From positions 1 through 26,319 of the forward strand of contig DXJO01000042.1 of the NCBI GenBank assembly GCA_019057475.1: DNA of 26,319 nucleotides, read 5' to 3'. This document shows positions 3 to 26,319 of this stretch, piece by piece. The notes beneath the pieces were generated by a model. The model worked only from the letters and a program-made list of their open reading frames with translations, was not told where the DNA came from and did not search any database. The first letter of the stretch is position 1. The number at the start of each line of letters is the position of its first letter. This stretch comes from Candidatus Thorarchaeota archaeon (lineage in GTDB: Archaea > Asgardarchaeota > Thorarchaeia > Thorarchaeales > Thorarchaeaceae). The translations under genes and the position numbers were made by a program.

Positions 3-575
3 CTGTACACTCGTGTCGGCATTCCCATGTATGACCTGAACCTTCTGATCAACGACCCTGGAGCACACACATCAAATGCCAATCTCATGCGAAACCCCGA
101 GACCATCGCTAAACTCGTTCATGACCAAGTGATGGAACAGCACACATACCTCTCGATTCCTCCTCATCTTGCGGATGCACACCTGAAGGGCGACATCTAC
201 ATCAAGGACCGCGAGTACTTCTCAACGCGCGATTACTGCGCAACTTGGGACCTCAGACAGATTCTCCTCCTAGGAATTGCACCAGATGGACTCGGTGGAA
301 TGCACTCCAGCGCTGCAGGACCCGCCCAGCACCTTCCTGTGGCCGTCAATCATGCCGCGATATGGCTAGCCGCGGCTCAGAGTTCGTTTGCTGAGCGCCA
401 AGGCCTATTCTACTTCAACACCTTCCTCGCCCCGTATATGAAGGGCCTCCCTTACAAGAAGATCAAGCAGGCCGCACAACAGCTGATATTCACGCTCACC
501 CAGCAGTACGTGGCCCGAGGTGGTCAGGTCATCTTCTCAAGCGTTGACTTCACACCTGGGATTCCTAGGATAATG
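3..575 (+). pseudogene. nrdD: Anaerobic (class III) ribonucleotide reductase, N-terminal fragment, truncated at about 575
   Basis: Frame is open from the window start (LYTRVGIPMYDL) and contains NANL, HLKGDIYIKD, DYC, GPAQHL, AQSSFA..QG, FNTFLAPY and YVARGGQVIFSS, typical of archaeal NrdD. Similarity ends after PGIPRIM and the ORF stops at 677, far short of the glycyl-radical C-terminus. The usual FAGGQ reads FAERQ. Confidence 0.8.
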
Positions 576-634
576 AGTCTTGTTCATTCATATCAACCTC
601 GAAGGCTGAAGATTCACCCCTTGGGAGCGAGAGT

Positions 635-1297
635 GTGCTGGAGAGTCTCGGTGCTGAGTTCACTGTCATTGATCTAAACTGGTCGCCCGAAGAAGAACCA
701 GACTGGTCCCCAGAGGACGAAGAGAAATCTGAAGACGCGGAAGATGAGGACGAAGAGGAAACTAAAGACGCAGAAGATGACGATGAAGAGAGCGAAGATG
801 CAGAAGTCGAAGAAGAAAGCGAGTTGGAAGATGAACGGGAACAAATGGACCCCAATCTGGTTCTCTTGCACACACTCGCAACAATGTCCATGAGTGCAAT
901 CGAGGACTTGGACCACGACGAACCGTACGAGAAAGTTCAATGGGATGAAGACTTGGCGGAGCGATGCCTATGCATTGTCCCAACGCAGATCCACCCTATC
1001 GCCACTGGCTCTGGGATGTACTTGGGCTTCTGGGGCTACCTCTGTGAGTTCGACCCTGAAACAGAGTCGGTCAGCGGCAGGAGGGTGACAATGTCACTCC
1101 CCTCAAAGCTAACGAGATGGATGGGGGCAGACCCTGAGAGCTTCTCGATGAAGGCAGACCCTGTTGATGACGCGGTCGTGTTCATGATCATCACGCAGTA
1201 TTATGGTCGAGAAGAGTTTGAGATAGATGGGCAGATGAGGAGTGCCCACACGTTCGGAACAATAGACCTCATAGAGAGTCGTTGGTCTGAAATATAG
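635..1297 (+). CDS. Highly acidic hypothetical protein (D/E low-complexity tract followed by a beta-rich globular domain), possibly 5'-truncated
   Basis: 220-aa ORF with repeats WSPEE/WSPED and three DAE-(D/E)n units. The frame is open upstream to 569, i.e. right up to the nrdD breakpoint. Confidence 0.7.
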   Translation: MLESLGAEFTVIDLNWSPEEEPDWSPEDEEKSEDAEDEDEEETKDAEDDDEESEDAEVEEESELEDEREQMDPNLVLLHTLATMSMSAIEDLDHDEPYEKVQWDEDLAERCLCIVPTQIHPIATGSGMYLGFWGYLCEFDPETESVSGRRVTMSLPSKLTRWMGADPESFSMKADPVDDAVVFMIITQYYGREEFEIDGQMRSAHTFGTIDLIESRWSEI

Positions 1298-1307
1298 ACA
1301 ACGCAAG

Positions 1308-1370
1308 TGGACGGATAGGCAGCTTTTCCGTCTATACACTCCGGGACCTCTCACAAATCCGCTTCTGTGA
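1308..1370. terminator. Hairpins between convergent genes (possible terminator)
   Basis: GACGGA...TCCGTC flanked by AGTG/CACT, followed by TCACA...TGTGA, in the 74-bp gap between two convergent stop codons. Confidence 0.3.
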
Positions 1371-1371
1371 A

Positions 1372-2595
1372 TCAGTTGAGCTTCGACTGCTTTTTCGCCA
1401 TTCCTTCTGAGTTGATTCCCTGCTCAGGCAGTATATCAGAAACGTGAATCAGTTGAATGTGATATCTGGTGCCTTTCAATGAAGCAAGCATCCTCTTGTT
1501 GAAGCCATTCGCCACAACAACCCCTCTTACCTTGCTCTTTGGTCCGAATTCCTCCTCAGCCCATACCAAGTATCGTTGAATTTGAGCCACGACATCATCA
1601 TCGGCTTCACCTATCTTGAGCTCCACCACAACCTTTGCACCATCTGGGGCCTCCAAGAGCAGGTCAATTCTGCCTGTGTCAGTCGGCACCTGTCTTCCAA
1701 CGCAAGTTAGGCCAACACCCAGCGGTGATGGATTTGCAACAAGAAAGGCCTCGAGTTGTTTCTCGCTTTCAATCTGCATAGACTCAGCGGTAGGCACTTG
1801 AGGCATGGTATGACCGGTGATTTGGATACCAGCTACGCACAAGTACATGTCATAGGTGGCAAGCTTGTCCTTGGTTCGTTCAGCAGTAAGGATCCCTGTC
1901 AATTCGATCACGTTGCCATTCCTTAGGACACCCGCGAGGTCTCCTTCAAGCCTGACCTCCATTGAAAAGGGTATTTCGCCGCGAGGTCTGTCCGTGGGAA
2001 GCTCCTCAATGCAACCCTTTTGGAAATCTACAAAGCGTGACAGTTCCTGAATTAATTGCATTGCAGTCTTCTTCCCGCATACTGGACACAAGGGAGGCTC
2101 AGTGTATCTCCCTTCCTCCTGCGTTTGGGGAATATCCCCACCACAAATTCTGCATCTGAAAACAGCCTCAATCAGCAGTGAGTTCGTTTCCGAGGCTTCC
2201 GCGACAACCCCTGTTGCGGTGATAAGTTTCCCAATGTGTTTGGTCTTGACTGCTCTGAGAGCCACGCGATTTGGGAAGTTGATGATACGTATCCTCAGAA
2301 GACTGGTATCGATTGCATTGACATATTCCGGGTCCTCGACGTGCAAGACACCTACCAGGGCTTTGCTTAACACGTTAAGGAACTGCATCGGGTCCTCCGT
2401 GGCAAGAATCGTGAAGACGCGGTCGAAGCTGACTAGATCTTGGAAGTCTACGGCCAATGATGTTTCGTCGTCTATGGACATCTGTTGAAGACGGGACCAG
2501 TACACGAGTATTCCTTGCTCGTTCTTGTAAGTGCGAAGAAACTCCTCAAATTTCTCTTGAGGACCGTCCTCTGGAAGGGATGTCATAGTTTCCAT
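1372..2595 (-). CDS. MCM N-terminal domain (helical A, Zn-finger B, OB-fold C) fused to a NucS/EndoMS-like PD-(D/E)xK nuclease; no AAA+ domain
   Basis: Residues ~1-262 carry MCM N-terminal motifs (QEKFEEFL, VDFQDL, LRAVKTKHIGKLI..TGVV, CRIC...CPVC, SRFVDFQK..IEELP...GEIP, LEGDLAG...G..IELTGIL). Residues ~275-385 read ESEKQLE...GRQVPTDTGRIDLL...VVVELK...QIQRY, a NucS-like catalytic domain. No Walker A/B motifs. Confidence 0.9.
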   Translation of the reverse strand: METMTSLPEDGPQEKFEEFLRTYKNEQGILVYWSRLQQMSIDDETSLAVDFQDLVSFDRVFTILATEDPMQFLNVLSKALVGVLHVEDPEYVNAIDTSLLRIRIINFPNRVALRAVKTKHIGKLITATGVVAEASETNSLLIEAVFRCRICGGDIPQTQEEGRYTEPPLCPVCGKKTAMQLIQELSRFVDFQKGCIEELPTDRPRGEIPFSMEVRLEGDLAGVLRNGNVIELTGILTAERTKDKLATYDMYLCVAGIQITGHTMPQVPTAESMQIESEKQLEAFLVANPSPLGVGLTCVGRQVPTDTGRIDLLLEAPDGAKVVVELKIGEADDDVVAQIQRYLVWAEEEFGPKSKVRGVVVANGFNKRMLASLKGTRYHIQLIHVSDILPEQGINSEGMAKKQSKLN

Positions 2596-2744
2596 CTCTC
2601 TTCTTTGCTTATCTCATTTTCCAACAGATCGTCGCTAAGGAGTCTGGAGCCATAGAAGGGATGCATCAGGCCGACCTTAAGGCCACCGCCGAGCAGCCGG
2701 TTCAGTTCGGGGATACCTGTATTCATAGTCCGATAGAATGTCAT
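2583..2744 (-). pseudogene. RadA/RecA-paralogue N-terminal fragment (53 aa, not in the ORF track)
   Basis: Manual translation: MTFYRTMNTGIPELNRLLGGGLKVGLMHPFYGSRLLSDDLLENEISKEERWKL*. It has the TG..LD/N.LLGGG motif with a degenerate Walker A. Its stop overlaps the start region of the MCM fusion. Confidence 0.7.
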
Positions 2745-2751
2745 CCCTTAG

Positions 2752-3306
2752 TTGCAGTTTTCAAAACTCGCTCGGTCCACCGTTCTGAAACCAAGTACTG
2801 AAAGGTTTAAGTTATTCCCTGCAGGTTTTTACAGAGGGGAGAAGTTCGAGTTGAAGAGAAGACTTCATTCTAGTCCTAAACGATATGACTGCATTATGAT
2901 TGTCTTCATAATCATGTTAGTGGGAGTTATTGTTCTTGCTTGGTTGATACCCGAACAGGTAGTTATTGATATCGCCTCAAGTATCGTCGAAATCGCTGTC
3001 GTGTTGGGAGTCTTCACCATATTCAAATTCATGTTTCCGAGAGATCGAGCCAATAGACAAAGAGTAAGGGGAGGACCTTATGGATCAGTCTACATTGCTC
3101 GGAATATGTATTGCATAGCATTATCTTCTGCAATTCTTTTCCTTATCTTCTACCATTTTGCATTGCACCCAACAGTTACTGCATGGATTGCGGCATATGT
3201 ATATGAGGCGGGTCATCTTTCTGGAGTCACTATCATAGGCGTCGCAATGTCATTGATCATTATAATGGGTTATCAAGTCTTGAACTCCTTCGAGTATCGA
3301 CTGTAG
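2752..3306 (+). CDS. Integral membrane protein (about 4 TM helices); true start probably TTG 2851 or ATG 2896
   Basis: Four hydrophobic stretches (IMIVFIIMLVGVIVLAWL, IVEIAVVLGVFTIF, IALSSAILFLIFY, VTIIGVAMSLIIIMGY) with a basic loop. Confidence 0.7.
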   Translation: MQFSKLARSTVLKPSTERFKLFPAGFYRGEKFELKRRLHSSPKRYDCIMIVFIIMLVGVIVLAWLIPEQVVIDIASSIVEIAVVLGVFTIFKFMFPRDRANRQRVRGGPYGSVYIARNMYCIALSSAILFLIFYHFALHPTVTAWIAAYVYEAGHLSGVTIIGVAMSLIIIMGYQVLNSFEYRL

Positions 3307-3388
3307 GCGATTTCTTATCCTCTTTGAAGTCATAATTTCTCATTATGTCTTTGGCATAGAGGATGTCGCGATGCAGAGTTACTATCAT

Positions 3389-4780
3389 CTACTTCAATGC
3401 TCTTGAGGCAATCATTCCAATGATTCTTGTGAGCTGATGCTCGAAAGCTCTGCTAAGGTCATCAGCACCGCATATGGCGTGTCCCACTTCGTGGAGCAGC
3501 ACCCCCGCATATCTCTCGAGGCTACTGAGTACATCACGTTTTACGACTATTCTGCCTTCCGTAGGCTCCCACACTCCTTCAACCTCCACGAATGTATCTG
3601 AATCTCTCCTCATAGTTTCTGAGATGGCAATGTGCGCAACAGTCGCAGGTTTGCCCCCGATTAGGTCCAGAACGCTTTCTGTCATATTGAAGACATTGCT
3701 TTCAGAAGGGGTCAGATCCTTCGATTTCACAAACTTGAACTCAAAGCTATCGTTGTATTCTTTTCGCAACTGGCCTAGGTCACGGATTGGTTTTCCAGCT
3801 ATGTCCGTCTTCCCTTCAATCCGCTCTTTCAGGTTCCTTGGAATCGTAATTATTTCAAGGCCGGAAGTGATTGCCTCGTTAACCATCATACTAGAACGCA
3901 TCATCTCCTCCGATGTAAGGAAAACTACGCGGGAAAAAGCATTGAGAGTCCTCACAGCCTGTTCCTGTACATCTATCCAGTTAAGCTCGTCATGAAGCCG
4001 ACCTACTTCATAATTCTTGAGATCGTCGACTAGATGCACAGCAACCTCCTTATTCTGACAGGAGAGAAGCATGGACTTCACTCTTCCCGAGTATGCAGTT
4101 CGTCCCACATTCGTCCGTTCTCTGTTCATGGCCTTCCGTATTGCACTCGTAAGAGAGGTGATGTTGTAGCTGAAAAGGAAGTTCTCCTCTTCGGCAACTC
4201 AGACTCCATTCACGTATATCCTTGCTGCTTCCGCTTTCTTTTCCAATACGTCGCCGTACTTGGTTTTCTCGATAACTCTCTCCCCAGAGAACCTTAGAAA
4301 GAGGTTTTTCGCCTTAAGGATATCATCATCTTTTATTCCCTTTAGGATAAACTCAGTACCTACAAAATCAGTATCCGAAGGAGGTGAAATGTAAGCATGA
4401 AGAGTAATAATGTCTTCGAAGCTATGCTTCTGTGACTTCCCAAGGGTAATCTTGCCATACTTCGATTCTATGAGCACATTCACACGATTCCTATCAAACG
4501 TGGCTAGTGCGTCTTTGAGCCCTATGCCGAATTTGCCTATCATATGCGGATTTCCGAGCTTCTCTTCATTCTCTTTCTGTGTGAGATGTTCATGCCTGAG
4601 GCCTCGACCGTAGTCCCTAATGTGCCAGTGACCCTTGGCATCCTTGAAGATATCGATTTCTTTGGTCCGAGTCAGTATTTGCTCATCTATTGAATTTGCT
4701 ATAACCTCTCTGATAGCATGGCATGTTTCCCAATCCTCTAGGATTTTCTCTATGTTCAAATCGAATTGCTTCCTAGACAC
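3389..4780 (-). pseudogene. GHKL (HATPase_c/MORC-like) ATPase with a C-terminal HExxH zincin motif, interrupted by one in-frame TGA at 4199-4201
   Basis: ORFs 4199..4780 and 3389..4129 are in the same frame and read RIYVNGV*VAEEENFLFSYNITSLTSAIRKAMNRERTN. GHKL motifs REVIANSID, DYGRG and GKFGIGLK are present, plus LLHEVGH near the C-terminus. The joined product would be 463 aa. Confidence 0.85.
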
Positions 4781-5552
4781 TTACATCAACTCCGATTCAA
4801 CCATCAGTAGAGTGAGCACGATACCCTCAAGGACTGTTGACTCTCCAAGCAGACTAAATAGGATTGCCTAGTTGGTCATAAACTGTATGCTTCCAATAAT
4901 CTATCTAGTAGAATAGTTCAGTTTGGCACCACTAATGGCAAGATGTGCTATCTTGATATTCATGTCCAATCATTAGCTGGATATTGCCACAGTCCCTCAC
5001 AATCGTGCAATGATTCACGAACTCGTCCTTTCTTATCATTTGATTGGATATCTAAACACACGCGATAAAGATAAAGATGAGGAACTGTTACAAGACAGGC
5101 TCCCAATCTCCGAGCTGCCAAGGGATGAATTATCTCAGTCTGCAACAAGAAACTGAACGTCCGATTCTTTATGCCAATCCGTATCCTTGACAGAAGGAGC
5201 CAAGGCGCTCCTAGCAACACAGGTTAGAGAGTGTCCATTTGGATTTCCCAAACGGCTTATTGCTAGGGCGATACAAAAAAAGAGTGTTCACAGTTAGAGA
5301 ACTGTCTGATCATAACCTAGGATATGACTTCGACCAAGCAAGACCATCATCATTGGATTTAACAAAGCTAAGCTGTCTCCACACCTGTCGAGATGGCGGC
5401 ATTTTCCAAGAAAGGCCTAGATACACCTATATGCATCGACCAGTAAATCGTTGTTTGGGGGACAACCAGCTACCAAACAGGACCCCATCATGAATTGAGC
5501 TTTCTTGAAGAGCCTGACGATTGCCAAATTATTTCAGGCGGAGGAGGGTACC

Positions 5553-16313: not shown

Positions 16314-17168
16314 GTGGGACATATGGACAATGAGTTCTCTCACCAAAAAGATCTCTATTTCGAAGCGCAAAAGCGGTCAGTCCAGAGAAGAGAGAAGATT
16401 AAGAAAGCAATCCGGACGGAGCTACACAAGTACCTCAGTGAGTTCAAAGACATAGAGATACGAGCGAGCGATATTGGAGAAGACGAACTGGCACTAGTTC
16501 TGTTTCGAGCGCCCATTCTCCTCAAGGCTCTCATCTCAACATGTAACATAGCACAGAGAGCGATCAAGCGTGACCTAGGCTTCGATGTCAAGACGTATGG
16601 CACCACGTTGAAGATGAACAGGGCGACACAACTGGCGAAGTACATCAAGCCATTCCTGCCCAAGACCATAACGCTCGAATCACTCCTGCTGGTTGACCAC
16701 GTATATTTCATTGACAATGAAATGCGTCAGATAAAAGGAAGTGAGTGGGAGAAACGTGTCATTGAAACATTGCGCAGGATTTCTGGGCGTGACTTCAGGA
16801 AAAGGAAATTCAACAGTAACCACTATGAAATAGATGCTGCTCTCGCTTCCCGTGGAATCATTATCGTTGGGGTCGATATCAAGAGAATCGAGTCGCCCCG
16901 TGACATTCATAAGAGGTCTGATGAAATAATTAACAAGGCGGTCCACCTCAAGAGAACCTTTCCAGACGCGAAATTCTTCGCAATGATATATTTCCCATTC
17001 CCGAAGGAACAGGACAAGATCGAGGAAAGGTTTGCGGAATCGCAGGTAGACGGAATAGTCTACGTCAGGGCCTCTGACGTATCAATTAGAAACAGCTGCG
17101 AGGAACTGGTCAAGATCGCCAAAATCAAACGAGGGCCGGTGGATGAATCTCTCGAAGACTACACATGA
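16314..17168 (+). CDS. Putative type II restriction endonuclease (PD-(D/E)xK)
   Basis: WEKRV...YEIDAA...GVDIKRIE nuclease-like motif; overlaps the downstream MTase. Likely start ATG 16323. Confidence 0.75.
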   Translation: MGHMDNEFSHQKDLYFEAQKRSVQRREKIKKAIRTELHKYLSEFKDIEIRASDIGEDELALVLFRAPILLKALISTCNIAQRAIKRDLGFDVKTYGTTLKMNRATQLAKYIKPFLPKTITLESLLLVDHVYFIDNEMRQIKGSEWEKRVIETLRRISGRDFRKRKFNSNHYEIDAALASRGIIIVGVDIKRIESPRDIHKRSDEIINKAVHLKRTFPDAKFFAMIYFPFPKEQDKIEERFAESQVDGIVYVRASDVSIRNSCEELVKIAKIKRGPVDESLEDYT

Positions 17169-17988
17169 GCTCAGACTGGGCGACGCACGTGATCTAGGCT
17201 TTCTTCAGGACGAGAGTATACATCTGGTTTTGACCTCTCCTCCGTATTGGACTCTCAAGGATTACAATGGCTCGGCCTCGTCGGGGCAACTCGGGGCAAT
17301 CGAAGACTATGAGGAGTTCTTGGTGGAACTCAACAAGGTCTGGCGCGAATGCTATCGCGTCTTGGTTCCAAGCGGAAGGCTCGTAGTTGTCGTAGGAGAT
17401 GTCTTACTCTCGCGAAGGAAACACAAACGTCACAGAATGATCCCACTACATTCGGATATTCAAGTCGCAGGACGCGATATTGGCTTCGATAATCTGACTC
17501 CTATCATTTGGTACAAGATCGGAAGTGCGACTTTTGAAGGGAATACCAGGTCGAACATACTTGGACAGCCCTATCAGCCCAATGCAATCGTGAAGAGCGA
17601 TGCTGAGTACATTCTCTTCCTTCGGAAACCTGGCTCATATCGAAAGCCTACAAAGGAACAGAAACAGAAGAGCATGATTCCACGCGATGACTTCATGAAA
17701 TGGTTTACGCAGGTCTGGACCGACATCGGAGGTACCCGTAACCCAGACCATCCAGCACCATTCCCCTTAAAGCTGGCAGAGAGGCTAATCAGGATGTTCT
17801 CGTTCGTTGGTGACACGGTGTTGGATCCGTTTATCGGGACTGGCACAACGATGCTAGCTGCAATTCGGTATGGACGGTCAAGCATTGGTGTCGAGATAGA
17901 TCCAAACTACATCGAGCTAGCCAGATCTCTTATCGAGAAGAACTTGCACTCATTAGAATATGAATTGAATTTTGACTTGATCAAATGA
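17143..17988 (+). CDS. Beta-class N4-cytosine/N6-adenine DNA methyltransferase
   Basis: GDARDL, catalytic TSPPY, HPAPFP, SAM-binding DPFIGTGT and GVEID. SPPY suggests m4C. Confidence 0.93.
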   Translation: MNLSKTTHELRLGDARDLGFLQDESIHLVLTSPPYWTLKDYNGSASSGQLGAIEDYEEFLVELNKVWRECYRVLVPSGRLVVVVGDVLLSRRKHKRHRMIPLHSDIQVAGRDIGFDNLTPIIWYKIGSATFEGNTRSNILGQPYQPNAIVKSDAEYILFLRKPGSYRKPTKEQKQKSMIPRDDFMKWFTQVWTDIGGTRNPDHPAPFPLKLAERLIRMFSFVGDTVLDPFIGTGTTMLAAIRYGRSSIGVEIDPNYIELARSLIEKNLHSLEYELNFDLIK

Positions 17989-18230
17989 AGCAGCAACGTC
18001 AGCGCAAGTACTCGACTCCCAAAGATATAGAATGTCTGGAAACTATCTATGAATAGTGGGACGATCTGACAAGGCAGTGTGCTATACAGGCATTACCTGC
18101 TGTTCTAGAGGACCTTCTGGAAACGATTGGCGGTGCGATATCAAAGATTGGTGGGATCTTTGACTCTAAGTATCAGGAACCGGACCAGAGAAAAGAATAT
18201 CAGGTCGCAGGTAAGTAGCTGCCCAGATCA

Positions 18231-19409
18231 ATGCGTCAAAGCATTACTCCTGTGGTGGAGCGCATGAGAGAACAAACTCAACTTATTCGCGACCTTGAGG
18301 AGCCAGGAGAAGAGGAAGAAGAGGCCTATCCTGAATATCCAAAGGAATTCTGGAAGAAGAAGAACAAAGAAGTAATCACAGTAACCGTGGACTACAGTCT
18401 TTCACATCTAACGAACTTGATCAAGAAGGGACTCATAGACCTCGCGCCGAAGCATCAGCGCAGACATCGTTGGACAGACAAGAGGAAATCGAAGCTCATC
18501 GAATCATTCATAATGAGCATCCCCATCCCACCCGTATTCCTCAACGAGGAGTCTGGTGGGTCGTATTCGGTCATTGATGGGCGACAGCGACTGATTGCAA
18601 TCTCTGAGTTCATGAAGGGGGAGCTCACGTTGTCCGGTCTCGAAGTCTTTGAAAACTTCAACGGAAAGACTATCCGACACTTGCCACAGGATTATGTGGA
18701 CAAGCTCGAGAATCTCTACACCCTTCGTGCACTTATTGTCATACGAGAAACCACCAAGCATGTCATGCTGGAGGTATTCACTAGGGTCAATACAGGTGGA
18801 GTCCAGTTGAACCCTCAGGAGATTCGTAATGCGACTTTTCAGGGCCCCCTGAACGATATGGTAATGGAACTTTCCCAGAGCGAGAGATTCCATTCGCTTC
18901 TTAGAATACGAGAAAAGACTCGATCCTCAATCTGGAACAAGATGAAGGATGCCGAGCTAGTACTCAGGTACATTACATTCAAGGACAAATGGAGCGAATT
19001 TCCTGGCCCACTGAAGACCAACATGGACAATTACATGAAAAAGAACCAATACATTCGAAAGCAAGAGATTGAGAAGATTGAACACGACTTCAATAGGACC
19101 ATCGGAGTTGTGGGCGCGTTCTTTGGGAAATATGCATTTCGGCGATGGAATCCCGAGAGAGGAAGGAGGGGAACTTGGTTTAAGGCGGTTAACTCAGCAA
19201 TCTACGACGCACAGATGTTCTCATGCCAGGATTTCGATTCTGAACAAGCGACGGGAAAGGAAACGGCGATCTTAGAGGGGATGAAATCGCTCTTCGAGGA
19301 TGATAAATTCAATGAATACGTGTCTCGTGGTACAAACACGCCCGAGTTTTTCAGAAATAGAATACAAATGGTAAAAGGAATGGTATTGGCCGCCATAGAA
19401 AGGACGTAG
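18231..19409 (+). CDS. DUF262 (GmrSD N-terminal / ParB-like) domain protein
   Basis: PKHQRRHRW, SKLIES, IPIP, VIDGRQRL and FTRVNTGGVQLNPQEIRNA. Confidence 0.9.
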   Translation: MRQSITPVVERMREQTQLIRDLEEPGEEEEEAYPEYPKEFWKKKNKEVITVTVDYSLSHLTNLIKKGLIDLAPKHQRRHRWTDKRKSKLIESFIMSIPIPPVFLNEESGGSYSVIDGRQRLIAISEFMKGELTLSGLEVFENFNGKTIRHLPQDYVDKLENLYTLRALIVIRETTKHVMLEVFTRVNTGGVQLNPQEIRNATFQGPLNDMVMELSQSERFHSLLRIREKTRSSIWNKMKDAELVLRYITFKDKWSEFPGPLKTNMDNYMKKNQYIRKQEIEKIEHDFNRTIGVVGAFFGKYAFRRWNPERGRRGTWFKAVNSAIYDAQMFSCQDFDSEQATGKETAILEGMKSLFEDDKFNEYVSRGTNTPEFFRNRIQMVKGMVLAAIERT

Positions 19410-19420
19410 GAGGAGGAGAT

Positions 19421-20173
19421 ATGCCAGCTTACGCGGTGTTCCTAGAAAAAATGGAAACTGTGGAATCTTTGATACGTCAGGAACGTCTTTGTGACCCGCG
19501 ACTACCGGCGGAAAGATCACTTGTTCTAGGCCTTCGCGGCGGTGCAGCGGTCCTGATGGTCGCGGCTTTTGAAGGGTTCCTAAAAGATGTTTTCACGGAG
19601 TACATCAGATTTCTGGACAAAGAACCGCCCATTATTTGGACTAGTAACCTAACGGATCGAATGAGGATTTGGAACGTCTATGAGAACTTAAGACTGGCAG
19701 CAAAATCTTATCACGAGAAGAATAATGAACAATTGCTTGCGGATATTCCAAGGATACGAGCTCTTTGTGAGAAGATCTCGATGGACATCATTGCGGCTAA
19801 TGCCTTTTCCAGTGGGACATCCAACCCGATGAAGGGACCTATTCAGGACATGTTCTTTAGAGTGGGCCTCGAGAATGTCTTTCAGAAAATCCACAAGCAG
19901 TTTGAACGCATCCATGGACCCATACTCGAACTCAACTACTTCGACAATGAGCTGGACAGAATCGTCAAAAGGAGACATCATATAGCCCACACAGCTGATG
20001 CCAGAAAGTTTACAGAAAAAGACCTTATGGATGACCTCAAGCTACTGAAGAACTTGGCACAGATTCTTAATCAGAAGCTGAGAAAGCATATCAAAATGCT
20101 TGTGGTAAAGCATAGTAGCCTAGGTGAACCCTCTTATTCAGACTTAAGCTCTCTCCTTAGGGCTAGCGGATGA
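19421..20173 (+). CDS. HEPN RNase (RiboL-PSP / MAE_28990-like)
   Basis: AVLMVAAFEGFLKD N-terminal helix, SNP, and the Rx4H motif RHHIAH. Strong AGGAGGAG RBS, 11 bp after the DUF262 gene. Confidence 0.85.
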   Translation: MPAYAVFLEKMETVESLIRQERLCDPRLPAERSLVLGLRGGAAVLMVAAFEGFLKDVFTEYIRFLDKEPPIIWTSNLTDRMRIWNVYENLRLAAKSYHEKNNEQLLADIPRIRALCEKISMDIIAANAFSSGTSNPMKGPIQDMFFRVGLENVFQKIHKQFERIHGPILELNYFDNELDRIVKRRHHIAHTADARKFTEKDLMDDLKLLKNLAQILNQKLRKHIKMLVVKHSSLGEPSYSDLSSLLRASG

Positions 20174-20821: not shown

Positions 20822-20841
20822 GACTTTCCACGTGGAAGGTC
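20822..20841. repeat. Left boundary palindrome GACTTTCCACGTGGAAGGTC
   Basis: Near-perfect palindrome; 18/19 identical to 26174-26192. Confidence 0.85.
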
Positions 20842-21047
20842 GCAGTTCGGACTTAGGTGTATTATGTCAGAATGCGGATGGTTTTTCGAATGAAGTTGCT
20901 AGAATTAAAGTTAGTTTAGAGGCAGCATATGAGATTGATCTCGAAAATACTGCATTCTTAGTTAGGGCACAATGTGGGGGGACTGGTATTTGGAAACTTC
21001 TATCAAATAATCAAGCCAAGAAACATAATATTAGCTCTGGTAGCGAA

Positions 21048-21809
21048 TTACGGGGGAAAAAATTTATCCAAGGCCTGTCTAAAGGAGGAATTGCTAATGC
21101 CACTGTTAGTAATTTTACTTCGGTCTGTTTCTCCCATATTCTTGAATTCGTCTGGAAATCCGAGTGCTAGAGCCACATGAATACACTCTTGCACCTTCTT
21201 GAACATCCCATTCCATCTGTGGAATTTTTCCATTTCGTAGGCAGGTGAAACTTTTCCAACCTCTGTTTGGAACTGACCCGCACCACTGTGAATGAATTGT
21301 GATAATTCACTGTATAATTTCGCTATTCTCATTTTGTTACCAAATAGTTCTGGTGCGTCCGGGCATTCTTTTTTGAAATCTTTCACCGTCCTTAATTCTC
21401 TGAAATAATCATGGCCTCTACCCCAAACATCAGCCAATTTGTTATCTTTGAACCACGTGCTACCCTCAGACCACCAGCCATATTCTACTTCATGTTTTGA
21501 AAAATATACCAGCCTTAACGCAGATTCCAGCTGAGAACGTAAGCATGCATGAGCATACTTATAGAGCCCATAACCTGCGAAATGAATCGAAATATAGGAA
21601 TCCATAAAAATCTCGGGTATGAACTTATCTGCACTACTTATGCTCTGCAATTTAGTTGCCCAAATATTAAAAAGCTCTGTCATATTTACAAGCTTTTCAA
21701 CATCCTCTGTATAGTTGGCTAATGTATTGTTCCAGTTTTCAACAACCCATTTTTCTTGGCTTTCATGCATGATTCTTGTTGAATCACCCATTGGTATCTC
21801 GGCCATCAT
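21048..21809 (-). CDS. All-helical HEPN-like (DUF5677-like) protein
   Basis: AHACLRSQLESAL ... LYSELSQFIH pattern. 4-bp overlap with the upstream gene. Confidence 0.6.
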   Translation of the reverse strand: MMAEIPMGDSTRIMHESQEKWVVENWNNTLANYTEDVEKLVNMTELFNIWATKLQSISSADKFIPEIFMDSYISIHFAGYGLYKYAHACLRSQLESALRLVYFSKHEVEYGWWSEGSTWFKDNKLADVWGRGHDYFRELRTVKDFKKECPDAPELFGNKMRIAKLYSELSQFIHSGAGQFQTEVGKVSPAYEMEKFHRWNGMFKKVQECIHVALALGFPDEFKNMGETDRSKITNSGISNSSFRQALDKFFPP

Positions 21810-22543
21810 CCATCAGATCTCCTCAATATGCCAGCAAATGAACATAGGGTATTATCATCACTATTTAGAGGACGAATGATCTTATCATAATTAATCCTAC
21901 TATAGTATTTGAAACAGATTTTTTCGTAGAGTTGTTCAAGACAGCTTATTTTTTCTGACTGATCTTGAATAGTACTAGAAAAGGTAGTATTGTTAATACA
22001 CAATGGTTGTGCAGCGCTTATTGAATGTGATGTATTAATTATCTGAGAAAAGCCTATATCTTTGGAGTTAAGAAGTGTTGTGTATATTAGTACAAATCCA
22101 TCGTTGTCATGGTCTGCTTGTAGCTTGATCGTCATCTCCAAACTCGCAAGTTCCTTTTCTACTCGGCCTAGCTCAAAATTCGGATTTTGGCTGGTAAAAT
22201 CCAGATTTACTATATCAAAAGGGAACCTATCTTTGATTTTAAAATTCTGATGCGTAATCGAATCTTCGTATCGACTCGCTCCTGTAACAGTTGCGGCGCT
22301 CAGTTCAGTTTCTAACCTTATTTGTACGACATACGTTGGAGCCCAGGCTGTGACATGCTTCTTCTCGGTAAGGTTTCTTTCTTCAAGCATTTCTATTTCT
22401 TGGAAGTTCTCAGAGTAAGTCAGTGTAAGTAATTTCATCTTTTTATTACGACGATGAGGATAAAGGGTCTTGCCGCCTTCAATCGCAATGGGTAGCCAGA
22501 GTTTCTCAAGAAGATTCGTTTTCATTTCCGGGGTCATAATCAT
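21806..22543 (-). CDS. Hypothetical protein with a probable Rossmann methyltransferase-like fold
   Basis: MKLLTLT strand and FPFDIVNLDF, resembling MTase motif IV-like (D..NLD) segments. No clear glycine-rich SAM loop. Confidence 0.55.
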   Translation of the reverse strand: MIMTPEMKTNLLEKLWLPIAIEGGKTLYPHRRNKKMKLLTLTYSENFQEIEMLEERNLTEKKHVTAWAPTYVVQIRLETELSAATVTGASRYEDSITHQNFKIKDRFPFDIVNLDFTSQNPNFELGRVEKELASLEMTIKLQADHDNDGFVLIYTTLLNSKDIGFSQIINTSHSISAAQPLCINNTTFSSTIQDQSEKISCLEQLYEKICFKYYSRINYDKIIRPLNSDDNTLCSFAGILRRSDG

Positions 22544-22545
22544 GA

Positions 22546-24255
22546 CTAATCCCCCAAGAAAATCTTCTCTAATAGGAGATTCAATTGCTTCAGAAGCTCC
22601 CTAGAGTCCTTCCTTTTCTGGGCAATTAGTCCGAATCCGAGAGATAGCTTCTTTATTATTTCATCACTAAGCTTGCTCTTAAACAAAGGATGAGACATAT
22701 TGAAGATAACTCTCTTGTCTTGAGAATGGAGTCGGCATATCGAGAAGGGATATTCGTTAGTATCCCACTCATCATAATCTACTTGGTACTCCACCCCCAT
22801 CATGCTCATTTTTTCTTGAAAAGAGGGATGCTCTTCATATATTATAATTGACCTCTCATCAGGTAGAACATCAATTGGAGGTGTGTCTTCGGGCGCTTGG
22901 TTCTTCTTGGTAATGACTTTAAAATCAGTTTTCTTGGAAAGTGCTTTAGCTACCTTTTCAGCAGGCGGGGCAACCAAACCCCTCTTTGTTTTGGAAATGG
23001 GAGACTTTCGAAGCCTTAACCGGCTTTTTGATATTTGAATGACCCCTGCATCCTTCAGCTCCTCTATTATTCTCGGGGATCCCCTAATACCAGCAAGAGC
23101 TTCGTAAATCCCCTTATCTTTTATAGCCATTCTTTCTAGCATATTACTCCATCTTAGGAGTTTCTTGCGGAAAAATTCCTGCAATTCTGCTACTTCTTGG
23201 GTATAGTAGAAACTATCTCTATCTATCATCAATACAGAATCCAGCCCGCTTTGAATGTGGATTTCGCCGCAAATCCAATTGAGTTTTCCAAGAACTTTCC
23301 CTTTTAACTTGATAACGTCGAAGTCAGTTGGGAGTCCAACTGCAACATCTCTCAACCTTACTTGGAAGCCTCTTGCTTCTTCTGGTTGTATTGGTTCTAA
23401 CGGAGTCATAAGAGCGTATTTTGCTGATACCTTGCCGAAAGACTCCTCGCCTTTGTCGATAATTTCCGCGCCTTCAGGAACATTTCGAAAGAGCTCATCT
23501 CCGTCAAGCCAAAGTCTAAGAGGAACTCTTTTGTCGTAGGCAAAAAAGCTCTTCAGGTCCTCTCGGTTCGGTGGAAACTGGATAGGGCTATACTGACTTA
23601 TTGTCCATTTGAACCTCTGACTGCCACTGAATCTATCAATGCTTGATTTCCATTGGGATTCTTTACGTTTCAAGTCATCCGCTATTTGTGGTGCAATTTC
23701 TTTGAGAATGAGAATAGTTTCACCGATTTCCACCCTGAGGTCGCTAGGATATAGTTTGTATGGAACTACCACATCTTCAACCAAAAAGAACTCATCTTTC
23801 CTAAAGAATTCGGCAGTATTAATGGTCAACTCAATATTAGAACTAGTATTCCTTTTTTTTGTAAGAATCTGTAGGGTCTGGCAATATGGAAATACGGACA
23901 GACAACCAATTCCAAATATGCCAATTCGTTTTCGTCCCAATTCATCAGTTTTATCACTTAATGGAGTTGGAAATCCAATTGAAAGAAACCTATCTCTTAG
24001 TTCTTCTAAATCCATTCCTCGGCCATTATCGCGAACTATAATTCGATTGTTTGGCAAATCTAGTTTTATTTTGACTTCGGTTGCGCCAGCATCATATGAA
24101 TTGGAAATCAGTTCTTTTACAGCTCTACCAAAGTTTCTATATAAACCACTGCTAAGGTGACGAACCACATCTTTGCTTACAGTCATTCGAAGCTGCCCTT
24201 CTTCCGTAACTGATGAACTCCCTTCCATTTCATCACCAAAATATTCGCTATTCAA
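22546..24255 (-). CDS. GHKL (MORC/HSP90-like) ATPase with an S5-like domain; likely start ATG 24228
   Basis: LSSGLY...AVKELISNSYDAGAT, DNGRGMD, IGIFGIG, GETI, then GEIH...IDRDSF. GGTGAT RBS before MEGSS. Confidence 0.9.
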   Translation of the reverse strand: MNSEYFGDEMEGSSSVTEEGQLRMTVSKDVVRHLSSGLYRNFGRAVKELISNSYDAGATEVKIKLDLPNNRIIVRDNGRGMDLEELRDRFLSIGFPTPLSDKTDELGRKRIGIFGIGCLSVFPYCQTLQILTKKRNTSSNIELTINTAEFFRKDEFFLVEDVVVPYKLYPSDLRVEIGETILILKEIAPQIADDLKRKESQWKSSIDRFSGSQRFKWTISQYSPIQFPPNREDLKSFFAYDKRVPLRLWLDGDELFRNVPEGAEIIDKGEESFGKVSAKYALMTPLEPIQPEEARGFQVRLRDVAVGLPTDFDVIKLKGKVLGKLNWICGEIHIQSGLDSVLMIDRDSFYYTQEVAELQEFFRKKLLRWSNMLERMAIKDKGIYEALAGIRGSPRIIEELKDAGVIQISKSRLRLRKSPISKTKRGLVAPPAEKVAKALSKKTDFKVITKKNQAPEDTPPIDVLPDERSIIIYEEHPSFQEKMSMMGVEYQVDYDEWDTNEYPFSICRLHSQDKRVIFNMSHPLFKSKLSDEIIKKLSLGFGLIAQKRKDSRELLKQLNLLLEKIFLGD

Positions 24256-24545
24256 TCTAATTCATAAATCTACTTATCAGATTATCTTCAAAGGCATTTT
24301 GATGAATCATTAATAGGTATAGCACAACTCAGCTACTAAGGAAAATAAGCGCTTGATGAAAAACATGTATTTGGACTGGTAACTTATGCAAGATAGCAGG
24401 CAACTGCAAATAAACGGAGGAGAACTAATTGAAAACAATTAATACGAACTTAATATTGATTGTCTTTCAATAACTCGTGACACTTGGAGAGATTTAGATA
24501 TCGGAACTACTTATCTAGATATCTTATGTGAGGTAGTAGAGAATC

Positions 24546-25655
24546 ATGAATACTTTGACAGATCGCCCTCAACAAGAGGTTTTTCTAGACAAATTGTCTT
24601 ATGAAGTACCAACTACTAGATATGTGGGTAGCAAAAGACGCTTTCTTGAGTTTATGCATGCAGTGACAAAAAGTTTGATCTCTAAAGACAGCGTAGTTTT
24701 GGATTTGTTTGGTGGGTCGGGCATTGTCGGCTATCATTTTAAGCGGCAGGGTTTTAGAGTCATATACAATGATTATCTGAAATTCAATTGGTGGATTGGT
24801 AAGGCACTGATTGAAAACACTGAACGCCAATTAGTAGAATCTGATATCAAGTCGCTTCTTGAAGTGAAGAAATCACGAAAGTATCCAACGCTCATCCAAG
24901 ACACTTTCAAAAACTACTACTACACGGATGAAGAAAACAGATGGCTAGATATTGTTAGCACCAATATCCGATATCTAAGGAAAGAATCAAAGAAAGCCGC
25001 AGCATATTATGCACTCTTCCAAGCTTGCCTGACAAAGCGTCCTTGGAGTCTATTCAATAGAGTGAATCTCGCTTTTAGACTTGCAGAACAGGAGCGTAGC
25101 TTTAACAACAAAACTACATGGGACACTTCATTCGAAACTATGTTTCGCAGATTTTGCGATGAGATTAACCAAGTGGTGTTTAACAATCAGCATGATAATA
25201 TTGCAATGAATGAGAGTGCTGAAAATCTATCACTAAAATCTATGGAACTGAAACCAGACATTGTATATATTGATCCTCCAAGTGGGAGGTCGCCATCAGG
25301 ACTACTTGATTACTATCAGTTGTATCATTTTCTTGAAGGATTAACAGATTATCACAGTTGGCATGAACGTATTGATTACCAATCCTATAATCTAAGGTTG
25401 AAGCCTCGGCAGAATTCTTGGAGTAATCCTGTTGAATTGAAGGATGCTTGGAAGAAGTGTATTCAATCCTTTAGAGATTCAATCCTTGTAATCTCATATA
25501 GGTCTCCAGGCTATCCAAAACTGGCATGGATTGAGAAACTCTTGAAAACACAAAAGCAGGATGTTCAAGTGTTTACCCAGAATGGATTATCGAGGATAGT
25601 CACTTCAGTGAATCAAAGGCTCGAGATGAACGAGCACGTTCTTGTGGCAGAGTAG
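24546..25655 (+). CDS. Alpha-class (Dam/M.FokI-like, D12) adenine methyltransferase with a variant catalytic motif DPPS
   Basis: RYVGSK, DLFGGSG, YNDY, YYTDEEN.WLD, LFQACL.KRP..LF.R.NL, N..TWD, YIDPPS and YHFLEGL. Confidence 0.85.
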   Translation: MNTLTDRPQQEVFLDKLSYEVPTTRYVGSKRRFLEFMHAVTKSLISKDSVVLDLFGGSGIVGYHFKRQGFRVIYNDYLKFNWWIGKALIENTERQLVESDIKSLLEVKKSRKYPTLIQDTFKNYYYTDEENRWLDIVSTNIRYLRKESKKAAAYYALFQACLTKRPWSLFNRVNLAFRLAEQERSFNNKTTWDTSFETMFRRFCDEINQVVFNNQHDNIAMNESAENLSLKSMELKPDIVYIDPPSGRSPSGLLDYYQLYHFLEGLTDYHSWHERIDYQSYNLRLKPRQNSWSNPVELKDAWKKCIQSFRDSILVISYRSPGYPKLAWIEKLLKTQKQDVQVFTQNGLSRIVTSVNQRLEMNEHVLVAE

Positions 25656-25898
25656 TGTTTCATTGTTCTTCCTCCTTGGTGAATAGAATATGCAACTCGT
25701 TTCTCTTGGATTCTCCATCTGAATCTGGTACAAGAAATGCAATGATACGGTACTTCGTGCCTTTCACAGTAATGTCGAACAACGTTGAAGTTCTTGTAGA
25801 GTGAGTACATGAAGTTTGCGAGCGCAAACTCGGGGACGTCCCACTCACCAAGGTGTTCATATCAATATGTGTCTATCATTTATGAGAGGTCTTAAAAG

Positions 25899-26117
25899 AT
25901 GATAGTCAGCGACGCACAATGGAAATACTGGAGAAATTGTCTGAAAGCATATCTTCAAGGCAAGAAGACAATGAACTGGATTGTTGGTGTTCTCGACATT
26001 AGCCTCATAAAGCAGTTTGACATGATGATCAAAGAGTTGCTGCCCTATGGACCATATCCTCGGCAAGGAGAAATACGAGAGATTCGAAGAAGAATTTCTG
26101 AACACAGATTTGATTAG
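25899..26117 (+). CDS. Small hypothetical protein
   Basis: 72-aa ORF; no motif recognised. Confidence 0.35.
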   Translation: MIVSDAQWKYWRNCLKAYLQGKKTMNWIVGVLDISLIKQFDMMIKELLPYGPYPRQGEIREIRRRISEHRFD

Positions 26118-26173
26118 AAGACACAGCAAATTGTAAGTTCTCACACAACTACTCTTCCAAAAGACAAGTAGCT

Positions 26174-26191
26174 ACTTTCCACGTGGAAAGT
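26174..26191. repeat. Right boundary perfect 18-bp palindrome ACTTTCCACGTGGAAAGT
   Basis: Self-reverse-complementary; matches 20823-20840. Confidence 0.9.
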
Positions 26192-26319
26192 CAGCCTGGT
26201 TGCTCTGATCCCTCATAACACTTCTTGCATAGGCGGAGCCTGTATCTCTCGCTGTCCTCTTCAGCCTCAGTTGCGTCATCACACTTCGTGCAAACATATC
26301 GGAGGAACAATCTAGTCGA
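26191..26319 (-). CDS. 3' end of a CxxC...CxxC zinc-finger protein (runs off the window; not in the ORF track)
   Basis: Manual translation: STRLFLRYVCTKCDDATEAEEDSERYRLRLCKKCYEGSEQPG*. The stop TGA abuts/overlaps the palindrome. Confidence 0.55.
   Translation of the reverse strand, partial: STRLFLRYVCTKCDDATEAEEDSERYRLRLCKKCYEGSEQPG

What the first reader, a model, noticed from the sequence alone, without database searches (positions are those of the whole stretch)
21048..25655. Candidate four-gene defence system: GHKL/MORC ATPase + MTase-fold + HEPN-like operon, divergent from a DPPS methylase
Seen: three tightly coupled minus-strand genes (2-bp gap, 4-bp overlap) and a divergent Dam/FokI-like MTase sharing a ~290-bp AT-rich spacer. 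All are similarly AT-rich and lie inside one palindrome-bounded cassette. No REase or helicase is recognisable. Established: prokaryotic MORC/GHKL ATPases associate with R-M and antiviral operons, and HEPN domains are often RNase effectors. Inference: a modification-sensing or R-M-guard system with an ATPase sensor, two methylase-fold proteins and a HEPN-like effector. I cannot match it to a named system. The fold calls for the two smaller genes are pattern-level only.
Basis: partly seen in the sequence, partly recalled or inferred. Interest (0 to 1): 0.75.

Follow-up and report, generated by a model that had tools for sequence, protein, structure and literature searches.

The report
Four-gene GHKL-ATPase methylase defence cassette
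Four genes (an Hsp90/MutL-type ATPase, a methyltransferase-shaped protein, a HEPN-like helical protein and a DNA adenine methylase) form one fixed, horizontally mobile unit found in many uncultured archaea and bacteria; it is probably an undescribed, untested restriction-modification-like immune system with no recognisable DNA-cutting enzyme.

Summary
In detail: genes, gaps, AT-richness and flanking palindromes are as described. The ATPase has an intact Bergerat fold. The 245-aa protein is a class I methyltransferase fold without a glycine-rich cofactor motif. The 253-aa protein is a HEPN-like helical bundle with a helix-2 E-x3-R and an invariant His where the HEPN catalytic His sits, but no canonical Arg. 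The 369-aa protein is a D12 adenine methylase with DPPS.

The four genes are one unit. All 8 genome loci with enough sequence carry them. In 51 metagenome loci seeded with the HEPN-like protein, 32 have all four in the same order; the other 19 are cut by contig ends. No fifth gene is conserved. This archaeal genome has a second, diverged copy.

No PADLOC model, NCBIfam or Pfam family, or searchable paper describes the cassette. The general theme is known: GHKL ATPases in R-M operons (2008) and HEPN fused to paraMORC (2013).

My best reading is methylation-gated immunity: the ATPase and methyltransferase-fold partner sense unmarked DNA and trigger the HEPN-like effector. Function is inferred, not shown.

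This scan found the same cassette before on other DNA (at least four other genomes, plus this genome's second copy).

The parts
22546..24255 (-). GHKL (Bergerat-fold) ATPase, 569 aa from the TTG start; probably 560 aa from the ATG at 24228. The N-terminal ATPase domain spans about residues 15-150. The roughly 420-aa middle and C-terminal region has no recognisable family.
   Evidence: Pfam HATPase_c_3 E 4.5e-20. Invariant E48/N52/D55, D76-N-G-x-G80 and G112-x-F-G-I-G117. PDB profile hits to Hsp90 and MutL cover the N-terminus only. The C-terminal part finds only 122 representative proteins, and the ten full-length ones scanned have no Pfam or NCBIfam family beyond the N-terminal ATPase domain.
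21806..22543 (-). Class I methyltransferase-fold protein, 245 aa. It has no GxGxG cofactor motif and a motif-IV-like N113-L-D115-F116. It is a distant relative of the PP_RS20740 family.
   Evidence: AF2 pLDDT 93.6. Foldseek PDB: 262 hits at E<=1e-3. VIA Z 13.9, 13.2 (Trm1) and 13.1. NCBIfam NF047698 E 4.4e-6, below the cut-off. Atlas points to PF28273. Invariant residues.
21048..21809 (-). HEPN-like all-helical protein, 253 aa, a distant relative of DUF5677. Invariant or nearly invariant residues: E66, D70, R91, S92, E95, R99, H106, E109, S170, H174, Q181.
   Evidence: AF2 pLDDT 90.2. VIA top hits 2hsb Z 8.7, sacsin HEPN 3o10 Z 8.3, 1ufb 7.7, 1wol 7.4. Foldseek found nothing. Weak DUF5677 hits in 23 of 49 members. 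Column counts.
24256..24545 (.). AT-rich divergent spacer between the ATPase operon and the methylase gene
   Evidence: The sigma-70 promoter scan was not informative and the genome is archaeal.
24546..25655 (+). D12-class N6-adenine DNA methyltransferase, 369 aa. Motif I is DLFGGSG. Motif IV is DPPS instead of DPPY.
   Evidence: Pfam PF02086 50.6 bits against a cut-off of 22. PADLOC MTase_II E 1.4e-51. DPPY in 6 of 8 genome orthologues and 32 of 32 metagenome orthologues where the motif could be read; DPPS only here and in L010.
20822..20843 (.). Left flanking palindrome
26171..26192 (.). Right flanking palindrome. It is the start of a roughly 75-bp stretch repeated near the end of contig C43.

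Best explanation
This is a self-contained, horizontally mobile, four-gene restriction-modification-like immune cassette.

Shown: the four families always travel together in a fixed order. The ATPase catalytic motifs are intact. The two small proteins have a methyltransferase fold and a HEPN-like fold.

Inferred:
- The D12 adenine methylase marks the host's own DNA.
- The GHKL ATPase, dimerising around DNA as MutL, MORC and Tiamat-type ATPases do, works with the translationally coupled methyltransferase-fold subunit as a reader of unmethylated target sites.
- ATP-driven closure then switches on the HEPN-like subunit.
- That subunit most likely acts as a nuclease on RNA, by analogy with the proposed PrrC-like role of paraMORC-Ymh HEPN fusions. 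The result would be arrest of the infected cell or of the invader's expression.
- The DPPS methylase of this copy is a lineage-specific variant whose activity is uncertain.
For: - Co-occurrence: all four genes are present in the window, the own-genome paralogue, a related archaeon, and Planctomycetia, Dehalococcoidia, Bathyarchaeota, Gemmatimonadota and Chloroflexia MAGs.
- Metagenome loci seeded with the HEPN-like profile: 32 of 51 have all four genes in the same order, 19 of 51 are cut by contig ends, and there are no exceptions.
- No fifth conserved gene in 26 long loci.
- The pairwise-identity matrices of the four proteins correlate, r 0.40-0.75, Mantel p<=0.002.
- Gaps of a few bp and overlaps between genes.
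- Sporadic distribution: full-length ATPase in 2 of 41 related genomes. Low G+C.
- Defence-island context: an R-M pair and a DUF262 + RiboL-PSP HEPN pair lie directly upstream.
- Intact ATPase motifs.
- Folds.
- HEPN features: helix-2 E95-x3-R99, a large insert between helices 2 and 3, and an invariant His at the end of helix 3, matching the topology described in PMC3710099.
- Precedents: GHKL ATPases in R-M operons (PMC2292703) and HEPN fused to paraMORC in R-M neighbourhoods (PMC3710099).
Against: - No experiment exists for any member.
- The canonical HEPN arginine is absent (S170-x3-H174). Fold Z scores of 7-9 are modest for a helical bundle, and Foldseek found nothing.
- The cluster of invariant acidic residues could indicate a different, metal-dependent chemistry.
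- An RNase effector does not obviously need a DNA methylase.
- The roughly 420-aa ATPase C-terminal region could hide a DNase.
- This copy's methylase lacks the base-stacking aromatic residue (DPPS).
- A DUF5677 ORF tested in E. faecalis was not among the active defence genes (PMC12632615).
Confidence: 0.45

Rival explanations
1. It is a classical DNA-cleaving restriction system. The cassette is an ATP-dependent R-M system whose DNase is cryptic, lying either in the uncharacterised C-terminal region of the ATPase or in the helical protein acting on DNA. Unmethylated DNA is cut, not RNA.
For: The N-terminus of the ATPase is most similar to the BbrUII/HgiDII restriction-enzyme family (NCBIfam E 3.8e-26; PADLOC REase_II E 1.6e-14). 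GHL ATPases with fused nucleases exist: paraMORC3 and Tiamat. A DNA methylase fits DNA restriction best. The C-terminal 420 aa is conserved, with invariant polar residues.
Against: The similarity to BbrUII covers only profile positions 2-130 of 659 (91.8 bits against a cut-off of 550). No nuclease family hit the C-terminal part in any of 32 members, or in the ten related ATPases scanned. The D/E residues of the candidate 'YDEWD...K' stretch are not invariant.
Confidence: 0.25
2. It is a toxin-antitoxin or addiction module. The methyltransferase-fold protein and the HEPN-like protein form a toxin-antitoxin-like pair, as MNT-HEPN pairs do. The ATPase regulates the pair. The cassette mainly stabilises the mobile element that carries it.
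For: There is a 4-bp overlap between the two small genes. They are the fastest-evolving pair, and their distances correlate (r 0.74). HEPN toxins neutralised by a modifying partner are among the structural matches (5yep, 8xdj). The distribution is mobile and sporadic.
Against: The partner has a methyltransferase fold, not a nucleotidyltransferase fold. The pair was never seen without the ATPase and the methylase where sequence allowed. Distant relatives of the helical protein sit in a different operon type, with ParA.
Confidence: 0.12
3. It is a non-defence DNA modification or repair machine. The two methyltransferase-fold proteins and the MutL-like ATPase install or read an epigenetic mark for replication, repair or gene regulation, without restricting foreign DNA.
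For: The ATPase is MutL/Hsp90-like. No nuclease is recognisable. The methylase is the most conserved partner.
Against: The patchy distribution across domains, low G+C, two diverged copies in one genome, one decayed copy (L016) and the defence-island setting are typical of immune cassettes, not housekeeping genes.
Confidence: 0.1
4. The four genes are chance neighbours with no functional link.
For: None beyond the fact that this window alone cannot show linkage.
Against: There are 40 complete loci with the same four families and no exception.
Confidence: 0.01

Closest known systems
MORC/paraMORC GHKL ATPases in predicted restriction-modification operons (Iyer, Abhiman & Aravind 2008, PMC2292703)
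   Same: A GHKL ATPase is linked to a DNA methylase in a mobile, sporadically distributed operon. The proposed role is an ATP-driven DNA clamp or looper in an R-M-like system.
   Different: Those operons usually carry an SFII helicase and/or a recognisable nuclease (RE fold, HNH, Vsr, HKD), and mostly cytosine methylases. Here there is no helicase and no recognisable nuclease. Instead there are an adenine methylase, a second methyltransferase-fold protein and a HEPN-like protein. The S5 domain and MORC motifs were not shown here.
paraMORC-Ymh HEPN fusion proteins in R-M neighbourhoods, proposed analogues of PrrC/RloC (Anantharaman et al. 2013, PMC3710099)
   Same: A GHKL ATPase is combined with a HEPN-type module next to modification genes. 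The idea is an RNase effector coupled to an R-M context.
   Different: Here HEPN-like is a separate gene, not a fusion. It is not the Ymh family (no Pfam hit). It lacks the canonical Arg of Rx4-6H. An extra methyltransferase-fold subunit is obligatory.
Tiamat (TmtA) and Tiamat-like / sacsin GHL ATPases (bioRxiv 10.64898/2026.09.30.754977)
   Same: The ATPase domain gives weak hits to TmtA (PADLOC E 9.4e-9) and to sacsin models (NCBIfam E 4.1e-10; Pfam SACS in 31 of 32 members). Sacsin also pairs such ATPase domains with a HEPN domain. Tiamat genes often neighbour adenine methylases.
   Different: Tiamat is over 1000 aa, with DUF3684 and a PD-(D/E)xK nuclease. [quoted passage not shown] This protein is 569 aa, and its operon has no helicase and no recognisable nuclease.
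BbrUII/HgiDII family restriction enzymes (NCBIfam NF050001)
   Same: This is the best-scoring named family for the ATPase N-terminus (E 3.8e-26).
   Different: Only profile positions 2-130 of 659 match, and the score of 91.8 is far below the cut-off of 550. The rest of the protein is unrelated by sequence.
Methylase-containing multigene defence systems with ATPases (MADS, Hma, Mza, BREX)
   Same: These are multi-gene systems with a methylase for self-marking and an ATPase component.
   Different: No PADLOC model of these systems matched beyond generic ATPase or methylase domains (MzaB E 1.4e-7 on the N-terminus only; mad2 E 4.8e-4). The two small proteins matched nothing.

Membership tests
GHKL (Bergerat-fold) ATPase superfamily | N-box ExxxNxxD, G1 box DxGxG, G2 box GxxGxG | tested here: met
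   E48/N52/D55, D76-N-G-x-G80 and G112-x-F-G-I-G117 are invariant in 32 sequences. Pfam HATPase_c_3 72.5 bits against a cut-off of 25.
MORC / paraMORC ATPases | S5-fold transducer domain after the GHKL domain, and family-specific motifs | not tested
Sequence profiles match only residues 15-150.
MORC / paraMORC ATPases | Operonic link to R-M genes (methylase, nuclease, helicase) | tested here: inconclusive
   A methylase is always present. No helicase or recognisable nuclease is conserved.
Tiamat (TmtA) | Long GHL ATPase with DUF3684 and a C-terminal PD-(D/E)xK nuclease | tested here: not met
   The PADLOC TmtA hit covers only residues 29-133 of a 1302-position profile. The protein is 569 aa, with no Pfam hit after residue 150.
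BbrUII/HgiDII restriction enzyme family (NF050001) | Full-length match above the curated cut-off of 550 bits | tested here: not met
   91.8 bits, profile positions 2-130 of 659.
HEPN superfamily | Four-helix up-down bundle with an insert between helices 2 and 3 | tested here: met
   The AF2 model has helices 60-79, 83-104, 161-174 and 193-217 with a 55-residue insert. VIA ranks 1-4, 7 and 8 are HEPN domains, best 2hsb at Z 8.7, rmsd 3.2 over 120 residues. Caveat: the Z scores are modest for helical bundles, and Foldseek gave no hit.
HEPN superfamily | Rx4-6H motif at the end of helix 3 | tested here: not met
   H174 is invariant at that position, but residues 4-6 before it are not basic (S170 is invariant). 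The R99-x6-H106 pair lies at the end of helix 2, not at the canonical site.
HEPN superfamily | Acidic residue in helix 2, typically E-x3-[KR] | tested here: met
   E95 in 48 of 49 sequences and R99 in 45 of 49. The motif is described in PMC3710099.
Class I SAM-dependent methyltransferases (245-aa protein) | Seven-stranded Rossmann-like methyltransferase fold | tested here: met
   pLDDT 93.6. All top-50 VIA matches are methyltransferases, Z 10.7-13.9. Foldseek E 1e-5.
Class I SAM-dependent methyltransferases (245-aa protein) | Glycine-rich motif I after strand 1, and an acidic residue at the end of strand 2, for SAM binding | tested here: not met
   The loop after strand 1 reads T40-L-T42-x-x-x-N46-F-Q-E49, with no conserved glycine. 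Strand 2 ends in A-W67 with no conserved acid. Cofactor binding itself was not tested.
D12-class N6-adenine DNA methyltransferases (369-aa protein) | Pfam PF02086 above the gathering score, and motif I FxGxG | tested here: met
   50.6 bits against 22. DLFGGSG is conserved.
D12-class N6-adenine DNA methyltransferases (369-aa protein) | Motif IV (D/N/S)PP(Y/F/W) with an aromatic last residue | tested here: not met
   DPPS here and in L010. DPPY in the 38 other orthologues where the motif could be read.
Named defence systems in PADLOC-DB v2 (MADS, Mza, Hma and others) | System-specific protein models matching the partner proteins | tested here: not met
   The 245-aa and 253-aa proteins matched no PADLOC model. 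The ATPase and the methylase gave only generic domain hits.

The most novel reading that the evidence does not exclude
This could be a restriction-modification system whose 'R' is not a DNase. A DNA adenine methylase marks self DNA. A sacsin/Tiamat-like GHKL clamp reads unmethylated foreign DNA through a cofactor-degenerate methyltransferase-fold reader subunit. It then activates a HEPN-like nuclease with a non-canonical S-x3-H site that cuts RNA. DNA-methylation status would thus be coupled directly to abortive infection. The pairing of a sacsin-like ATPase with HEPN would also be a prokaryotic counterpart of the eukaryotic sacsin architecture.
Probability: 0.2. Interest if true: 0.85.

Novelty: new variant of a known kind. 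Interest (0 to 1): 0.6.

Why it matters
If the cassette is an immune system, it would add a compact, widespread module to the methylation-based defences. It would be unusual in having no recognisable DNA nuclease or helicase, and in needing a second, probably non-catalytic methyltransferase-fold subunit and a HEPN-like protein.

It occurs almost only in uncultured archaea and bacteria, including Asgard archaea, Bathyarchaeota and Methanophagales. That explains why it has escaped functional screens done in E. coli and Bacillus.

It gives three unannotated protein families a testable role. It also offers a prokaryotic pairing of a sacsin/Hsp90-like ATPase with HEPN that may bear on the origin of eukaryotic sacsin-type architectures.

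The DPPS methylase lineage and the two diverged copies in one genome are natural experiments on how specificity and self-marking evolve in this cassette.

Tried and rejected
I obtained context through the genome search, the fetch from genomes and the search for related loci instead.
- The single-protein scan of genome contigs found nothing. The alignment-based scan worked.
- There was no match in E. coli genomes. IMG/VR viral contigs gave nothing with the ATPase profile. PLSDB plasmids gave no full-length ATPase, only N-terminal domain hits.
- Foldseek of the 253-aa model against PDB gave nothing below E 0.3.
- Profile searches of both small proteins against PDB sequences gave only chance-level hits.
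- hhalign of the HEPN-like family against the neighbouring RiboL-PSP HEPN protein gave nothing (probability 0.1).
- The BFVD search with the methyltransferase-fold model gave only generic methyltransferases.
- PHROGs had no family for the two small proteins.
- The C-terminal 419 aa of the ATPase, searched alone against 1.84 billion representatives, found only 122 proteins. Those near full length share the same overall architecture. The ten full-length ones scanned have no Pfam or NCBIfam family beyond the N-terminal ATPase domain, so its fold stays unknown.
- PP_RS20740 is known in the literature only as a hypothetical protein from a furfural-tolerance screen.
- A DUF5677 ORF was tested in one preprint and was not among the active defence genes.
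- The sigma-70 promoter and terminator scan was no better than shuffles, and does not apply to an archaeon.
- Rejected: membership in MADS, Mza, Hma, Tiamat or BbrUII; a canonical HEPN active site; chance adjacency.
Full report
**Observation.**
- 21048-21809(-), 253 aa.
- 21806-22543(-), 245 aa, overlapping the first by 4 bp.
- 22546-24255(-), 569 aa, after a 2-bp gap.
- 24546-25655(+), 369 aa, divergent across a 290-bp spacer.

The public cluster representative of the ATPase is 560 aa. The real start is therefore probably the ATG at residue 10, which makes the spacer about 317 bp. G+C is 0.37-0.41 over the cassette against 0.46-0.52 in most of the window. Near-identical palindromes ACTTTCCACGTGGAA(G/A)GT lie at 20822-20843 and 26171-26192. 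The genome is archaeal: a full-length SSU rRNA scores best with the archaeal model.

**The ATPase (569 aa).**
- It matches Pfam HATPase_c_3 at E 4.5e-20.
- The N-box E48/N52/D55, the G1 box D76-N-G-x-G80 and the G2 box G112-x-F-G-I-G117 are invariant in 32 homologues, so it should hydrolyse ATP.
- Named models match only its first ~150 residues: BbrUII/HgiDII restriction enzymes (E 3.8e-26, 91.8 bits against a cut-off of 550), sacsin, MutL, HtpG, MzaB and Tiamat TmtA. Pfam SACS hits 31 of 32 members weakly.
- A family profile against PDB sequences finds only Hsp90 and MutL N-domains.
- Residues 151-569 searched alone against 1.84 billion representatives found 122 proteins. Those near full length are GHKL ATPases of similar length. 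The ten full-length ones scanned have no Pfam or NCBIfam family beyond the N-terminal ATPase domain.
Whether it holds an S5 transducer or a cryptic nuclease is open.

**The 245-aa protein.** It has no Pfam, PADLOC or PHROGs hit. It gives a weak NCBIfam PP_RS20740 match (E 4.4e-6), and the protein atlas points the same way.
- With a 50-sequence alignment AlphaFold gives pLDDT 93.6 and a canonical seven-stranded class I methyltransferase topology.
- Foldseek finds 262 PDB chains at E<=1e-3. By VIA-align all top 50 matches are methyltransferases, Z 10.7-13.9, led by RNA and small-molecule enzymes such as Trm1, RsmD-like and RlmO.
- The usual glycine-rich SAM loop is replaced by T-L-T-x-x-x-N-F-Q-E.
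- After strand 4 there is an invariant N113-L-D115-F116. From my own knowledge this resembles the NLPY/DPF motif IV of amino-methyltransferases.
- So the fold call is right, but catalysis is doubtful.

**The 253-aa protein.** It has no family hit. 23 of 49 family members touch DUF5677 weakly, best E 7.5e-4, in line with the atlas.
- The AF2 model (pLDDT 90.2) is all-helical.
- Foldseek finds nothing.
- An all-against-representatives VIA search puts HEPN domains at ranks 1-4, 7 and 8: 2hsb Z 8.7, sacsin HEPN 3o10 Z 8.3, 1ufb 7.7, 1wol 7.4, 4nqf 7.0 and 5yep 6.9. AbiA, RnlA and LsoA rank lower. These Z values are modest for helical bundles.
- Mapped on the HEPN topology of Anantharaman et al. 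2013, helix 2 carries E95-x3-R99, the known E-x3-[KR] motif. A 55-residue insert separates helices 2 and 3. The end of helix 3 carries an invariant H174 where the catalytic His of Rx4-6H sits.
- The Arg is missing: S170 is invariant instead.
- An R-x6-H pair (R99...H106) lies at the helix 2/insert boundary, not at the canonical site. H106, E109, R91, E66 and D70 are invariant and may form part of an alternative site.
- I rate 'HEPN-like fold' as likely (about 0.75) and RNase activity as unproven.

**The 369-aa protein.** It is a D12-class adenine methylase: PF02086 at 50.6 bits against 22, and PADLOC MTase_II at E 1.4e-51, aligned to the second half of a 643-position tandem-methylase model. 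Motif I is intact. Motif IV is DPPS. Among the 40 orthologues where the motif could be read, only this one and its 62%-identical relative in a related archaeon (L010) have DPPS; the other 38 have DPPY. In both DPPS loci the methylase is on the opposite strand from the other three genes.

**Linkage.**
- A second, diverged copy lies in the same genome (G000:C32:450-4688, ATPase 44% identical, DPPY). A further copy lies in a genome of the same family (L010). Both have all four genes.
- Genome scans add Planctomycetia, Dehalococcoidia, Bathyarchaeota, Gemmatimonadota and Chloroflexia MAGs, all with the four genes. A Cloacimonadales locus is cut by its contig end. The Chloroflexia copy is decayed.
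- As a reciprocal test I seeded a metagenome scan with the HEPN-like profile. Of 51 close relatives, 32 have all four genes in the order ATPase, methyltransferase-fold, HEPN-like, methylase, with the methylase co-directional in 30. The 19 incomplete loci are all cut by a contig end where the missing gene would lie.
- In 26 long loci no fifth family occurs in more than 3. The apparent families present in 5-7 loci are antisense shadows inside the ATPase gene.
- Pairwise-identity matrices of the four proteins correlate, r 0.40-0.75, Mantel p<=0.002. The relatedness of the loci inflates such tests. The two small proteins evolve fastest: mean identity 0.34 and 0.40, against 0.52 and 0.55 for the ATPase and methylase.
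- A full-length ATPase occurs in only 2 of 41 related genomes.
- The gene set upstream is a defence island: a 284-aa ORF with an N6_N4 methylase, and a DUF262/GmrSD_N protein with a RiboL-PSP HEPN protein.

**What is known.**
- PADLOC-DB v2 has no model for the two small proteins and no system-level match.
- Full-text searches found no description of this cassette.
- The theme is known. Iyer et al. 2008 predicted MORC/paraMORC GHKL ATPases as parts of R-M systems, usually with helicases, recognisable nucleases and cytosine methylases.
- Anantharaman et al. 2013 noted Ymh-family HEPN domains fused to paraMORCs in R-M neighbourhoods and proposed a PrrC-like role.
- A 2026 preprint on Tiamat describes sacsin-related GHL ATPases next to helicases, nucleases and adenine methylases. 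[quoted passage not shown]
- I therefore class this cassette as a new variant of a known kind.
- This scan has met the same cassette before on other DNA, and earlier follow-ups reached similar conclusions. My evidence above is independent of those notes.

**Mechanism.** Shown: a fixed four-gene unit, intact ATPase motifs, and the two folds. Inferred: the methylase marks self DNA. The ATPase dimer clamps DNA and, with the tightly coupled methyltransferase-fold subunit as site reader, detects unmarked sites. ATP-driven closure activates the HEPN-like effector, most likely against RNA. Rivals are:
- a cryptic DNase in the ATPase C-terminal region (classical restriction);
- a toxin-antitoxin-like pair under ATPase control;
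- a non-defence modification machine.

The DPPS methylase of this copy remains unexplained.

Noticed in passing
G000:C32:450-4688 (locus L009): This is a second, diverged copy of the whole cassette in the same genome. All four genes are co-directional with overlaps. The ATPase is 44% identical and the methylase 42-43% identical to the window's, and the methylase has a normal DPPY. Two copies probably mean two specificities.
   Followed up: partly
window 16314-20173: A defence island lies directly upstream. It has a 284-aa ORF without a family plus an N6_N4 methylase (17143-17988), a likely type II R-M pair that is also present next to the cassette in the related genome L010 (7971-9711). It also has a GmrSD_N/DUF262 protein (18231-19409) followed by a RiboL-PSP HEPN protein (19421-20173).
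   Followed up: partly
window 26171-26250 and G000:C43:17770-17860 (locus L174): The right-hand palindrome and about 75 bp after it are repeated near the end of contig C43. Both contigs end about 130 bp beyond it. The palindrome may therefore be the edge of a multi-copy element where the assembly breaks. The left-hand copy (20822-20843) shares only the palindrome and sits right after the stop of a 107-aa membrane/zinc-ribbon ORF.
   Followed up: partly
loci L143, L145, L146, L148, L150, L157, L161: Distant relatives of the HEPN-like protein (21-31% identity; one reaches DUF5677 at 25.4 bits, just under the cut-off) lack the ATPase and methylase. They form a different conserved three-gene operon: a ParA/AAA_31 ATPase (in L161 only its 193-aa C-terminal part was found), a 160-177-aa unknown, and the DUF5677-like protein. 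HEPN families in operons with ParA/Soj ATPases are noted in PMC3710099.
   Followed up: partly
locus L016 (Chloroflexia MAG) 17-5471: This is a decayed copy of the cassette. The ATPase is split by a frameshift, and the HEPN-like gene is interrupted by about 1.8 kb of inserted DNA (2331-4105).
   Followed up: no
window 25261-25290; locus L010 1027-2136: DPPS replaces DPPY only in the methylases of this window and of the related archaeon. In both loci the methylase gene is on the opposite strand from the other three genes. The same lineage therefore changed both the catalytic motif and the operon structure.
   Followed up: partly
locus L176 (Clostridium butyricum megaplasmid NZ_CP073278.1) 4004-4714: A very distant relative of the HEPN-like protein (about 21% identity) is annotated as hypothetical. 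It lies directly downstream of a large serine recombinase gene, an arrangement that one preprint (PMC12632615) uses as a marker of defence genes.
   Followed up: no
window 25656-26170: About 515 bp lie between the methylase stop and the right palindrome. They hold only short, low-complexity ORFs (66 and 95 aa) with no family hit, so the stretch is probably non-coding.
   Followed up: partly
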